Source of the DNA: Escherichia coli | GTDB lineage: Bacteria > Pseudomonadota > Gammaproteobacteria > Enterobacterales > Enterobacteriaceae | Assembly: GCF_013122565.1 (NCBI RefSeq) | Contig: NZ_CP053258.1 | Length of the DNA stretch: 64,000 nucleotides | Reading direction: 5' to 3' (one strand) | In this document: positions 12,001 to 15,000 of the stretch, piece after piece | How the letters are laid out: each line of letters opens with the position of its first letter | Position numbering within the stretch: position 1 is the stretch's first letter | Made by a program: the position numbers

Positions 12001-15000
12001 CGATATACAAGAACATCCTGCAATCGCGCGCAGATTTGTGAATTAGCGGCCCGGGTATTCCGGGTTACTGAAAGGATATCCATTGAGGTTGGTATGAATA
12101 TTTTCACAGAGGCTGCAAAACTCGAAGAGCAAAATTGTCCGTTTGCGATGGCGCAAATTGTTGATAGCCGAGGCTCGACTCCCCGCCATTCTGCACAAAT
12201 GTTAGTGCGCGCCGATGGCTCTATCGTCGGTACAATTGGTGGCGGAATGGTTGAGCGGAAGGTGATTGAAGAGTCGCTTCAGGCATTGCAGGAGCGTAAG
12301 CCGCGATTATTCCATGGACGTATGGCTCGTAACGGTGCGGATGCTGTCGGGTCAGATTGTGGAGGTGCAATGTCAGTATTTATCAGCGTCCATGGTATGC
12401 GTCCACGTCTGGTGTTGATTGGCGCGGGGCATGTCAACCGGGCGATAGCCCAGAGTGCGGCGCTATTAGGATTTGATATTGCCGTTGCCGATATTTATCG
12501 CGAAAGCCTCAATCCTGAACTATTCCCTCCATCAACCACGCTTCTCCATGCTGAGTCGTTTGGTGCGGCAGTGGAAGCACTGGATATTCGCCCTGATAAT
12601 TTTGTCCTGATTGCCACGAATAATCAGGATCGTGAAGCCCTCGACAAACTCATTGAACAGCCCATTGCATGGTTGGGGTTGCTGGCAAGTCGTCGCAAGG
12701 TTCAGCTTTTCCTGCGTCAATTGCGTGAGAAAGGCGTGGCTGAAGAACATATTGCCCGTTTACATGCGCCCGTTGGTTACAACATAGGTGCGGAAACGCC
12801 GCAGGAGATCGCCATCAGCGTGCTGGCAGAAATATTACAGGTGAAAAATAACGCGCCGGGTGGGCTGATGATGAAACCTTCTCATCCTTCCGGACACCAG
12901 CTGGTGGTGATTCGCGGTGCGGGAGATATCGCCAGTGGTGTGGCGCTACGTCTGTATCATGCGGGTTTTAAAGTGATCATGCTGGAAGTGGAAAAACCGA
13001 CAGTGATTCGTTGTACCGTGGCGTTTGCCCAGGCCGTGTTCGATGGCGAAACGACGGTCGAAGGCGTCACTGCCCGCCTGGCAACCAGCTCTGCGGAAGC
13101 GATGAAACTTACCGAACGCGGATTCATCCCTGTGATGGTAGATCCCGCCTGTTCATTGCTTGATGAACTGAAACCGCTTTGCGTGGTGGACGCTATTCTG
13201 GCGAAACAGAATTTGGGAACGCGGGCAGATATGGCACCAGTAACAATCGCGCTTGGGCCGGGCTTTACTGCAGGGAAGGATTGTCATGCGGTAATTGAAA
13301 CAAATCGCGGGCACTGGCTCGGTCAGGTGATTTACTCTGGTTGTGCGCAGGAGAATACCGGTGTTCCTGGCAATATTATGGGGCATACCACCCGACGGGT
13401 GATCCGTGCTCCTGCTGCAGGCATTATGCGATCCAACGTGAAATTAGGCGATCTGGTGAAAGAGGGCGATGTGATTGCCTGGATTGGTGAGCATGAAATT
13501 AAAGCACCGTTGACGGGAATGGTGCGTGGCTTGTTGAACGACGGCCTGGCAGTGGTTGGTGGTTTTAAAATTGGTGATATTGATCCTCGTGGTGAAACCG
13601 CTGATTTCACCAGCGTTTCTGATAAAGCCCGGGCGATTGGCGGCGGCGTACTTGAGGCGTTAATGATGTTGATGCATCAGGGCGTTAAAGCGACGAAAGA
13701 AGTGCTGGAAGTGGCTTAAATGAAAATGGCCGGATGGTATTACCCACCCGGCCTGAGACTGATGACAAACGCCGAATTGCCTGATGGACTACGCTTATCA
13801 GGCCTACAAGTGCATTGCAATCTATTGAATTTACGATGTTTTGTAGGCCGGATAAGGCGCTCGCGCCGCATCCGGCATCAACAAAGCGCGTTTTGTTAAC
13901 AATCTTTAACCGGATGGCGTATCCATCCGGCCTTTAAATTACTGACAAATCACCGTTCCGGTTTTGCCTTCAATCCCTTCTTTCGCTTTGCTCAACACGG
14001 TAATCAGTGCTTCACGACCTGCGCGAGAGCGAGCAAACGAGGCGGCAGCTTCCACTTTAGGCAGCATAGAACCTTTCGCAAAATGACCTTCTTCGATAAA
14101 GCGTTCAGCATCACTTAATGACAGGCGATCGAGCCACTGTTCATTCTCTTTACCGAAGTTAATGGCCACTTTTTCTACCGCAGTCAGAATGATCAGCATA
14201 TCGGCATCAATCATTTCTGCTAAACGGGCGCTGGCCCAGTCTTTATCGATAACCGCACTGGCACCACGCAGGTGGTTACCTTCACGAATAACAGGGATAC
14301 CACCACCGCCAACGGTAATCACTACCTGGCCTGCTTCTACCAGCGCTTTTACCGTCTCTTTTTCAATAATATCAACCGGTTTTGGTGAAGCAACAACACG
14401 ACGATAGCCGCGACCAGCATCTTCTTTCAGGGTGTAGCCCTGTTTTGTCAGTTGCTCTGCTTCTTGCTCGGTAAAGAACGAACCGATCGGCTTGGTCGGG
14501 TTGAGGAATGCCGGGTCGTTAGCGTCGACTTCGACCTGAGTAACCAGCGTTGCTACAGGTTTATTAATGCCCCGAGAAAGCAGTTCTTCTCTTAAAGCGT
14601 TTTGTAGATCGTAACCAATATAACCCTGGCTTAATGCAACACAGACAGACATCGGCAGCATTGGCGAGTGTGCTTCAGTTTTTGCGGCAGCTTCAAAGGC
14701 CTGGTTAATCATGCCCACCTGTGGCCCGTTACCGTGAGTGACGATGACCTCATGTCCCTGGGCAATTAAATCAACAATTGCCTGAGAAGTAATTTTTACC
14801 GCTTTCATTTGCCCGGCCAGGTCATCGCCCAGCGCATTCCCGCCCAGGGCGAGAACAATTTTCTTACTCATTTTTCCTCACTCATCATTCTTGATTGTGT
14901 ATAGATCCCTGGCAGTGGTTAGAGCACGGGAGGGACAAACGGTTTGCGTCGCAGGAAACGACCTCGCCCGGCTTTGCCTGTAAAGGTGCCGTCACAGAAA

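What the first reader, a model, noticed from the sequence alone, without database searches (positions are those of the whole stretch)
13771..13880. REP/BIME cluster between convergent yqeB and yqeA
Two inverted REP copies form a BIME-like element in the 219-bp convergent gap. These are common in enterobacterial core genome and help place the window taxonomically.
Basis: partly seen in the sequence, partly recalled or inferred. Interest (0 to 1): 0.15.

Follow-up and report, generated by a model that had tools for sequence, protein, structure and literature searches.

The report
BIME-1 repeat between yqeB and yqeA
The flagged sequence is a textbook E. coli BIME-1 repeat (two inverted REP hairpins around an IHF-site linker) between two convergent genes; it is ordinary and already known, though it is absent from about 70% of E. 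coli genomes and is flanked by two copies of the local terminator hairpin.

Summary
The 219-bp gap between convergent yqeB (12094-13719, +) and yqeA (13939-14871, -) holds one z1 REP (13779-13807), a 35-nt L linker (13808-13842) and one y REP (13843-13877). This is the BIME-1 architecture, also called RIB or RIP. They are the only full REPs in the 64-kb window.

Full-length relatives at 85-88% identity occur at many other E. coli loci. K-12 carries the same element at this locus, so the finding itself is already known and ordinary.

Three further points:
- **Larger unit.** The repeated unit is about 152 bp (13755-13906). Its conserved ends form a 14-nt imperfect terminal inverted repeat.
- **Polymorphism with a duplicated hairpin.** Only 1648 of 5425 complete E. 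coli genomes carry the element here. The rest have a 40-bp gap with a single terminator hairpin. In filled sites that hairpin lies on both sides of the unit (13727-13754 and 13907-13934). The same pattern holds at yddM-fdnI and aspC-gloC, and in 9 of 23 independent BIME-1 contexts.
- **Shared ends with boxC.** boxC repeats have the same terminal motifs, and one Escherichia genome has a boxC-type element in exactly this site.

The likely local role is a shared 3'-UTR structure and IHF site, because each gene's U-tract terminator lies beyond the element.

The parts
12094..13719 (+). yqeB CDS (541 aa), left convergent gene
   Evidence: ORF; annotated yqeB in E. coli records; Pfam XdhC_CoxI/XdhC_C on the identical protein
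13727..13754 (.). Left copy of the duplicated terminator hairpin (TGGCCGGATGGTATTACCCACCCGGCCT). Read on the - strand it is followed by ATTTTCATTT, so it is the terminator-like site for yqeA transcripts.
   Evidence: Inverted repeat I6; terminator scan, - strand 13753->13728; identical to the single hairpin of empty sites; exact 28-nt direct repeat in K-12
13755..13778 (+). Left flanking motif of the BIME-1 unit (GAGACTGATGACAAACGCCGAATT), one arm of the terminal inverted repeat
   Evidence: Conserved at 8 E. coli loci and in 23 metagenome contexts. Consensus arms AGACTGATGACAAA / AGATTGTTGACAAA match 12/14, 0 of 1000 shuffles; window copy 7 of 1000
13779..13807 (-). z1 REP, 29 nt (GTAGGCCTGATAAGCGTAGTCCATCAGGC on the - strand). 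It has two window-specific substitutions at 13787-13788, so the bulge reads AA opposite CC instead of AA opposite GC.
   Evidence: 28/30 to consensus, E 7e-8; alignments A2 and A3; z1 = 29 nt with GTAG and AA-GC bulge per PMC8266576
13808..13842 (.). L linker, 35 nt, with an IHF-like core ATTCAATAGATTG at 13818-13830 on the - strand
   Evidence: Linker is 34-37 nt in 59 of 78 Z1-Y pairs. Core GCAATnTATTGAATTT is nearly invariant. 12/13 match to WATCAANNNNTTR. The L linker carries an IHF site per PMC3333891 and PMC2817692.
13843..13877 (+). y REP, 35 nt (GTAGGCCGGATAAGGCGCTCGCGCCGCATCCGGCA) with GTAG and the AA/GC bulge
   Evidence: 35/35 to consensus, E 1.5e-15; inverted repeat I5; sub-threshold Rfam naRNA4 match
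13878..13906 (+). Right flanking motif of the unit (TCAACAAAGCGCGTTTTGTTAACAATCTT), the other arm of the terminal inverted repeat. Only 83% identical to K-12.
13907..13934 (.). Right, diverged copy of the terminator hairpin (TAACCGGATGGCGTATCCATCCGGCCT). On the + strand it is followed by TTTAAATT, so it is the terminator-like site for yqeB transcripts.
   Evidence: Direct repeat D1 and inverted repeat I3; terminator scan, + strand 13910-13930; comparison with K-12, E. whittamii and E69
13939..14871 (-). yqeA (carbamate-kinase-like, 310 aa), right convergent gene
   Evidence: ORF; annotation; Pfam AA_kinase

Best explanation
The element is a BIME-1, also called a RIB or RIP element. It is a single, non-coding, roughly 152-bp repeat unit (13755-13906). 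It consists of a z1 REP and a y REP in inverted orientation with their GTAG ends facing a conserved 35-nt L linker that carries an IHF-type site, all bracketed by two conserved flanking motifs.

Shown here: its anatomy, its membership of a dispersed family, its orthology with the K-12 copy, its presence/absence polymorphism, and the duplicated terminator hairpin around it.

Inferred mechanism:
(a) Origin. The unit entered at the foot of the single bidirectional terminator hairpin between yqeB and yqeA and duplicated that hairpin. The insertion probably predates the E. coli / E. whittamii split. Most E. coli later lost it by recombination between the two hairpin copies.
(b) Present action. After the split, each gene's hairpin-plus-U-tract lies on the far side of the unit. 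Both convergent mRNAs are therefore predicted to carry the whole BIME-1 in their 3' UTRs. There the GC-rich REP stem-loops would slow 3'-5' exonucleases and attenuate read-through. At the DNA level the linker would bind and bend around IHF.
For: Anatomy and family:
- z1, a 35-nt linker and y, with GTAG tags.
- Full-length alignment with copies at fliC-fliA, yphH-glyA, yddM-fdnI, aspC-gloC, cobB-ycfZ and rhlE-dinG.
- A consensus from 23 further contexts.
- This matches the published BIME-1 definition (PMC3333891) and its roughly 140-bp size (PMC1187871).

Repetition: at least 24 places per genome in 5425 genomes.

Orthology: K-12 has the same element in a 220-bp gap, 93-100% identical across hairpin 1 to the y REP.

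Polymorphism: 1648 of 5425 genomes are filled; empty sites have a 40-bp gap with one hairpin.

Hairpin duplication:
- 28 nt exact in K-12 and 27 nt exact at yddM-fdnI.
- About 20 nt, imperfect, at aspC-gloC.
- Empty alleles at both other loci keep one copy.
- 9 of 23 metagenome contexts score at or above the 99th percentile of mismatched-flank controls, with the right copy starting at +129 to +131.

Age: the E. whittamii copy has a near-identical linker at the same position.

Terminators: the - strand site is hairpin 1 and the + strand site is hairpin 2, each distal to its gene.

Structure: fold z-scores of -7.5 and -9.0.

Function from the literature: REPs act as mRNA stabilisers and partial terminators, and REPs between convergent genes correlate with higher expression of both (bioRxiv 10.64898/2026.03.23.713779). 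The L linker binds IHF (PMC3333891, PMC2817692).
Against: - No expression, 3'-end or IHF-binding data were available for this locus, so the functional part rests on the family and on the terminator scan, which is only a consensus match.
- The IHF-like site alone is not significant: 12/13 matches occur 1.9 times per kb in the window.
- About 70% of E. coli do without the element, so any role is dispensable.
- The polarity of the polymorphism is not proven. Empty sites in Escherichia sp. E1V33 and Citrobacter MGH106 also fit an ancestral empty state.
- The z1 copy has two substitutions in its loop and bulge.
- 14 of 23 contexts show no clear flanking repeat.
Confidence: 0.85

Rival explanations
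1. The unit is a REPIN: a REP doublet mobilised by the genome's RAYT (TnpA_REP, yafM in K-12) through IS200/IS605-like single-strand excision and insertion. The flanking hairpin copies would then be unrelated to the insertion.
For: Two inverted GTAG-tagged REPs can pair into one long hairpin (- strand fold). E. coli TnpA_REP binds and cleaves y, z1 and z2 BIMEs in vitro, at CT dinucleotides and even at a distance (PMC3333891, PMC8266576). The left junction reads GGCC|TGAG.
Against: IS200/IS605-type transposition makes no target duplication (PMC3333891, PMC2817692). Here the unit is bracketed by locus-specific repeats of about 20 to 28 nt at three loci, and empty alleles keep one copy. The repeated unit extends about 25-30 bp beyond each REP and has its own terminal inverted repeat. 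boxC elements without REPs share those ends. No RAYT gene lies in the window. In vivo REP transposition has not been shown (PMC8266576).
Confidence: 0.3
2. The element is a BIME-2 or atypical BIME, the class that binds DNA gyrase, rather than a BIME-1.
For: It contains a y REP and a Z-class REP in inverted orientation.
Against: The Z REP is 29 nt and matches z1 over its full length (28/30), whereas z2 matches only 14 nt. The linker is 35 nt with the L core, not the short 16-27-nt class seen in other Z1-Y pairs. There is one unit and no tandem array.
Confidence: 0.03
3. The stretch encodes a small RNA gene (naRNA4- or ES036-like) or the 59-aa ORF at 13720-13899, rather than being a passive repeat.
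For: Sub-threshold Rfam matches: naRNA4 at 13846-13882 (33.8 bits, E 8e-4) and ES036 at 13800-13842 on the - strand (30.9 bits, E 9e-4). An ATG ORF spans the gap.
Against: Both Rfam scores fall below their gathering thresholds (59.5 and 37.6), and naRNA4 is itself REP-derived, so the matches restate REP similarity. No promoter-like site occurs in 13500-14150. The ORF runs through repeat sequence that is missing from 70% of genomes.
Confidence: 0.04
4. The element is only a chance palindrome or an ordinary bidirectional intrinsic terminator, not a repeat-family member.
For: Convergent gaps commonly hold GC-rich hairpins. The flanking hairpins here are terminator-like.
Against: The core matches full length at 85-88% identity at many unrelated loci and in every E. 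coli genome. E-values against the window are 1.5e-15 and 7e-8.
Confidence: 0.01

Closest known systems
BIME-1 / RIB / RIP elements of E. coli (Gilson 1991; Bachellier 1994, 1999; Boccard & Prentki 1993; Oppenheim 1993, as summarised in PMC3333891, PMC2817692, PMC1187871)
   Same: One y and one z1 REP in inverted orientation, a conserved 35-nt L linker with an IHF-type core, single copy, extragenic at the 3' ends of transcription units, about 140-150 bp, and present or absent between isolates. K-12 has the orthologous copy.
   Different: Nothing essential. This copy has two substitutions in the z1 loop and bulge, and a right flank and right hairpin that differ from every complete E. coli genome searched.
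REPINs mobilised by RAYT / TnpA_REP (Bertels & Rainey 2011; Nunvar 2010; Ton-Hoang 2012)
   Same: A doublet of inverted GTAG-tagged REPs able to form a long hairpin. It is a non-autonomous, slowly evolving and vertically persistent repeat.
   Different: The unit is longer than the doublet and has its own terminal inverted repeat. It is flanked by hairpin-length direct repeats, which IS200/IS605-type transposition does not produce.
YPAL / RU-2 elements of Yersinia (De Gregorio 2006, as summarised in PMC2229807)
   Same: About 150-170 bp, not AT-rich, with internal inverted repeats. Target duplications are of variable length (3-26 bp) and the targets span or adjoin dyad symmetries.
   Different: Sequence relatedness was not tested. 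YPAL elements are not described as carrying GTAG REPs or an IHF linker.
boxC / PIT / TMECO repeats of E. coli (PMC4666352, PMC2267715)
   Same: The terminal motifs are shared with BIME-1 (cAGaCTGATGACAAAg ... GTTTGTcAGCAATCTcAAa). A boxC-type element occupies this very site, between the same two hairpins, in Escherichia strain E69. boxC elements are also intergenic and polymorphic.
   Different: The interior is a G-rich/C-rich triplex-type palindrome instead of z1-L-y, and the family has only about 3 places per genome.

Membership tests
REP (E. coli y / z1 palindromic units) | Conserved GTAG tetranucleotide 5' of the palindrome foot | tested here: met
   GTAG at 13843-13846 (+) for y; CTAC at 13804-13807, which is GTAG on the - strand, for z1
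REP (E. coli y / z1 palindromic units) | Imperfect palindrome of class length (y 35 nt, z1 29 nt) with an AA-GC bulge (PMC8266576) | tested here: met
   y is 35 nt, 35/35 to consensus, with AA/GC present. z1 is 29 nt, 28/30; its bulge is retained but reads AA opposite CC
REP (E. coli y / z1 palindromic units) | High-copy dispersed extragenic repeat | tested here: met
   At least 24 to 57 places per genome (capped) in 5425 genomes. The element lies wholly in the intergenic gap.
BIME-1 (RIB/RIP) | One y and one z1 REP in inverse orientation, as a single unit rather than a tandem array | tested here: met
   (no tandem array)
BIME-1 (RIB/RIP) | Long, conserved L linker carrying an IHF consensus | tested here: met
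   35 nt. The core GCAATCTATTGAATTT matches the nearly invariant family core. ATTCAATAGATTG matches WATCAANNNNTTR at 12/13.
BIME-1 (RIB/RIP) | Actual IHF binding to the linker | not testable with these tools
   Needs EMSA, footprinting or ChIP; only the sequence motif was checked
REPIN / RAYT system | REP doublet able to fold as one long hairpin | tested here: met
   In the - strand minimum-energy fold, z1 pairs with y across the linker. In the + strand fold each REP folds on itself.
REPIN / RAYT system | Cognate RAYT gene in the genome flanked by the same REPs | not testable with these tools
   No transposase gene among the window's genes. The single RAYT locus (yafM in K-12) would lie elsewhere in the genome.
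REPIN / RAYT system | IS200/IS605-type insertion without flanking target duplication | tested here: not met
   27/28-nt direct repeats flank the unit; empty alleles have one copy
MITE-like non-autonomous element | Terminal inverted repeats | tested here: met
   Consensus 12/14, 0 of 1000 shuffles; window copy 7 of 1000. The K-12 copy is degraded (899 of 1000).
MITE-like non-autonomous element | Target-site duplication shown by filled and empty alleles | tested here: met
   Three loci with filled/empty pairs and 9 of 23 contexts above the control 99th percentile. The repeat length varies from about 12 to 28 nt and spans a hairpin, unlike classical fixed-length duplications.
MITE-like non-autonomous element | A parent IS or transposase with matching ends | not tested

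The most novel reading that the evidence does not exclude
BIME-1 and boxC may be two 'cargo' versions of one family of roughly 120-180-bp MITE-like elements. The family would be defined by shared 14-18-nt terminal inverted motifs (AGACTGATGACAAA ... TTTGTCAGCAATCT). Its members would insert at the foot of intrinsic-terminator hairpins and duplicate the whole hairpin, giving structure-determined target repeats of about 12-28 bp. That would point to a dissemination route for BIME-1 other than the RAYT / IS200-like route (which makes no duplication) usually assumed. It would also mean each insertion turns one bidirectional terminator into two, placing the repeat in both 3' UTRs. I could not read the 1990s BIME papers (Bachellier 1994, 1997, 1999), which may already describe the flanking motifs and 'excision of whole BIME-1'.
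Probability: 0.3. Interest if true: 0.5.

Novelty: already known. Interest (0 to 1): 0.2.

Why it matters
As a finding it matters little. It is a correct call of a well-known repeat class at a locus where K-12 has the same element, and it adds only weak taxonomic information.

The surroundings are more useful. This locus, with yddM-fdnI and aspC-gloC, gives clean filled and empty allele pairs in thousands of genomes. In each pair a roughly 150-bp BIME-1 unit is bracketed by two copies of the local terminator hairpin.

How REPs and BIMEs spread is still stated to be unresolved (PMC8266576; bioRxiv 10.64898/2026.03.23.713779). Hairpin-length target duplications and ends shared with boxC are concrete constraints on any proposed mechanism.

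These natural allele pairs would also allow a direct test of what a BIME-1 does to two convergent mRNAs.

Tried and rejected
- **Pattern searches.** A fuzzy-regex REP scan timed out and was replaced by blastn-short.
- **K-12 annotation.** The RefSeq K-12 record in this collection lists no REP features at the locus, so the annotated REP name could not be quoted.
- **Rfam.** It holds no REP or BIME family that reaches threshold; only sub-threshold naRNA4 and ES036 matches appeared.
- **Papers not held.** Bachellier 1997 (PMC1207841), De Gregorio 2006 (PMC1636318) and Boccard & Prentki 1993 (PMC413762) could not be read. Prior description of the flanking motifs and hairpin duplication therefore could not be checked.
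- **Source organism.** An exact-protein look-up of YqeB failed to identify it. The protein is widespread, and all loci returned are 97-99% identical to the window at the DNA level.
- **Inverted hairpin copy.** I considered that the second hairpin was made by snap-back copying. The loops of the two copies are not reverse complements of each other (by inspection), so I rejected this.
- **Independent insertions.** I considered that the window and K-12 elements arose separately. They share the locus-specific linker sequence at 97%, unlike copies at other loci, so I rejected this.
- **REP census in other genera.** A scan of the 58 orthologous loci held too little intergenic DNA to be informative.
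Full report
**Observation**

The window has a 541-aa ORF at 12094-13719 (+) and a 310-aa ORF at 13939-14871 (-), leaving a 219-bp convergent gap. 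E. coli records annotate these genes as yqeB and yqeA/arcC.

- GCCTGATGGACTACGCTTATCAGGCCTAC at 13779-13807.
- GTAGGCCGGATAAGGCGCTCGCGCCGCATCCGGCA at 13843-13877.

Their GTAG-proximal arms form a 16-nt, 94% complementary inverted repeat 31 nt apart. Against a family consensus, the y REP matches 35/35 (E 1.5e-15 in the 64-kb window) and the z1 REP 28/30 (E 7e-8). No other full REP occurs anywhere in the window. The gap folds much better than shuffled sequence, with z = -7.5 and -9.0.

**What it is**

In genomes that lack it at this locus, the best matches are full-length copies at other loci: fliC-fliA, yphH-glyA, yddM-fdnI, aspC-gloC, cobB-ycfZ and rhlE-dinG. These align over z1, a 35-nt linker and y at 85-88% identity.

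This fits the published definition of BIME-1: z1 plus y, separated by a long, well-conserved L linker that frequently carries an IHF site, occurring as single copies (PMC3333891; also PMC2817692). The published REP lengths (y 35 nt, z1 29 nt), the GTAG tag and the AA-GC bulge (PMC8266576) are all met. The one exception is that the window's z1 has two private substitutions, so its bulge reads AA opposite CC.

The linker core GCAATnTATTGAATTT is nearly invariant across 23 further contexts. On the - strand, ATTCAATAGATTG (13818-13830) matches the IHF consensus WATCAANNNNTTR (from my own knowledge) at 12/13. That match is not significant on its own, since the background rate is 1.9 per kb.

K-12 MG1655 has the same element in a 220-bp gap. 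The finding is therefore an already known element at a known locus.

**The unit is larger than the REP pair**

All copies share a left flank, GAGACTGATGACAAACGCaaAATT, and a right flank, TGAACAAcGCGCACTTTGTCAaCAATCT.

The consensus ends are a 14-nt inverted repeat, AGACTGATGACAAA / AGATTGTTGACAAA, matching 12/14. None of 1000 shuffles scores as well. The window copy is matched by 7 of 1000; the K-12 copy is degraded.

In the window the unit is 13755-13906, 152 bp. This is close to the 140 bp quoted for BIME-1 (PMC1187871).

**Polymorphism and the duplicated hairpin**

Only 1648 of 5425 complete E. coli genomes cover at least 80% of 13620-14040. The rest match in two pieces that span about 180 bp less.

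Three such genomes have a 40-bp gap with a single hairpin, GGCCGGATGGTATTACCCACCCGGCC. In K-12 this hairpin, plus one base on each side (28 nt), is exactly duplicated on both sides of the unit, with a spacing of 180. In the window the left copy (13727-13754) is identical to K-12. The right copy (13907-13934) has diverged to TAACCGGATGGCGTATCCATCCGGCCT.

The same architecture recurs elsewhere:

| Locus | Flanking repeat | Spacing | Genomes filled | Empty allele |
|---|---|---|---|---|
| yqeB-yqeA | 28 nt exact (K-12) | 180 | 1648 of 5425 | one hairpin |
| yddM-fdnI | 27 nt exact | 178 | 2069 of 5425 | one hairpin |
| aspC-gloC | about 20 nt, imperfect | 173 | 2811 of 5425 | one hairpin |

A metagenome scan with the exact z1 30-mer gave 23 distinct BIME-1 contexts. 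In 9 of them the best left/right flank repeat scores at least 10. Mismatched-flank controls have mean 7.1, sd 1.2 and a 99th percentile of 10. The repeats are locus-specific hairpins. The right copy starts at +129 to +131 from z1, and the spacing is 168-179. The two copies often differ in the loop but keep the stem.

This is the signature of a target duplication spanning a terminator hairpin. IS200/IS605-type transposases, the relatives of RAYT, do not make target duplications (PMC3333891, PMC2817692). Yersinia YPAL elements are reported to make 3-26-bp duplications at dyad symmetries (PMC2229807).

**History at this locus**

I scanned one genome per species with YqeA:
- **Empty sites:** Escherichia sp. 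E1V33 and Citrobacter sp. MGH106.
- **E. whittamii:** hairpin 1, the left flank, z1 and a near-identical linker, then GTAGG fused directly to hairpin 2. This looks like a deletion between the GGCCGGAT of the y REP and the CCGGAT of hairpin 2.
- **'E. coli' E69:** this genome is only 92.6-93.7% identical to the window, so it is another Escherichia lineage. It has both hairpins and the same terminal motifs, but a boxC-type interior.

Hairpin 2 of the window resembles that of E. whittamii and E69, not K-12's exact copy of hairpin 1. The window-K-12 identity drops from 93-100% on the left to 83% in the right flank and 79% in hairpin 2. No complete E. coli genome exceeds 95.0% over 13620-14040, although the flanking 8 kb reaches 99.1%.

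My reading (inference) is an old insertion before the E. coli / E. whittamii split. Gene conversion of hairpin 2 by hairpin 1 then occurred in the sampled filled E. coli lineage, followed by repeated loss through recombination between the two copies. An ancestral empty state with later gain is not excluded.

**boxC link**

The E69 insert belongs to a small family, with a median of 3 places per genome. Its members at gcvP-ygfF, argE-ppc and sstT-alx carry the boxC palindrome CCCCTCGCCCCTTtGGGGAGAGGG. They also share the ends cAGaCTGATGACAAAg ... GTTTGTcAGCAATCTcAAa with BIME-1.

The accessible boxC/TMECO paper reports no consensus in flanking sequence (PMC4666352). The older BIME papers could not be read.

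**Likely function here**

The terminator scan places the - strand site at hairpin 1 (13753 to 13728, tail ATTTTCATTT) and the + strand site at hairpin 2 (13910-13930, tail CCTTTAAATT). Each gene's hairpin-plus-U-tract therefore lies beyond the BIME. No promoter-like site occurs in 13500-14150.

Both convergent transcripts are thus predicted to include the whole unit, in antisense to each other, over roughly 200 nt. A 2026 study found REPs to be context-dependent 3'-UTR elements that act as partial terminators and as blocks to mRNA degradation. It also found REPs between convergent genes associated with higher expression of both genes (bioRxiv 10.64898/2026.03.23.713779).

I therefore commit to a 3'-UTR stabiliser and attenuator role plus an IHF site. 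My confidence is about 0.6 for the RNA-level role and lower for any fitness effect, since 70% of E. coli lack the element.

**Verdict**

It is already known and of low interest in itself. The hairpin duplication and the ends shared with boxC are the only features that might be new, and I could not establish whether the older literature covers them.

Noticed in passing
window 13727-13754 and 13907-13934: The local terminator hairpin is present twice, flanking the 152-bp BIME-1 unit. Genomes without the BIME have exactly one copy. The same pattern (repeats of about 20 to 28 nt, spacing 173-180) holds at yddM-fdnI and aspC-gloC, and 9 of 23 metagenome BIME-1 contexts show similar flanking repeats (spacing 160-179).
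   Followed up: yes
window 13878-13934: The right flank and right hairpin are only 79-83% identical to K-12, against 93-100% for the rest of the gap. No complete E. coli genome exceeds 95.0% over 13620-14040, although neighbouring genes reach 99.1%. The window's right hairpin resembles those of E. whittamii and strain E69.
   Followed up: partly
L017:3958-4076 (CP089930.1, 'E. coli' E69; yqeB-yqeA gap): A boxC-type element sits in exactly the same site between the same two hairpins, with the same terminal motifs as BIME-1. boxC copies at gcvP-ygfF (L095), argE-ppc (L096) and sstT-alx (L097) share those ends. E69 is only about 93% identical to the window, so its species label looks doubtful.
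   Followed up: partly
L015:3940-4060 (Escherichia whittamii yqeB-yqeA gap): This is a deletion derivative of the same BIME-1. z1 and the linker are intact, then GTAGG is fused directly to the second hairpin, as if by recombination between the GGCCGGAT of the y REP and the CCGGAT of the hairpin.
   Followed up: partly
L019-L022 ~3931-4040 (Citrobacter spp. yqeB-yqeA gap): The orthologous gap in several Citrobacter holds Citrobacter-type REP pairs with short linkers. The first begins with the same GGCCGGATGG as the E. coli hairpin, so the hairpin may itself be REP-derived, or the site may be a recurrent REP target.
   Followed up: no
window 1-64000: The two REPs of the finding are the only full REPs in 64 kb. 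From about 600 REPs in 4.6 Mb (PMC3333891) one would expect about 8, so the region is REP-poor.
   Followed up: partly
window ~27273-50000: tRNA-Gly(CCC) at 27273-27346 is followed by a GH15 gene, a GhoT/OrtT-family toxin gene and a type III secretion gene cluster (eivF, sctC and related genes, through ygeH). The region is collinear with E. coli strain 48 at 98.2% identity.
   Followed up: no
window 13800-13842 (-) and 13846-13882 (+): Two sub-threshold Rfam matches: ES036/CssrF sRNA over the L linker (30.9 bits, gathering 37.6) and naRNA4 over the y REP (33.8 bits, gathering 59.5). This suggests those Rfam families are themselves BIME-derived.
   Followed up: no
window 13720-13899 (+): A 59-aa ATG ORF starts right after the yqeB stop codon and runs through the BIME. 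It is almost certainly spurious, since the sequence is absent from 70% of genomes.
   Followed up: no
H127, NZ_CP024862.1 5034068-5035043 (yddM-fdnI locus of strain AR_0015): An IS200C-family transposase gene is annotated at the yddM-fdnI site where other strains have a BIME-1 or a single hairpin.
   Followed up: no
window 59828-59876: An imperfect tandem repeat (23-nt unit, 2.2 copies, 82% matches) lies in the kduD-araE intergenic region.
   Followed up: no
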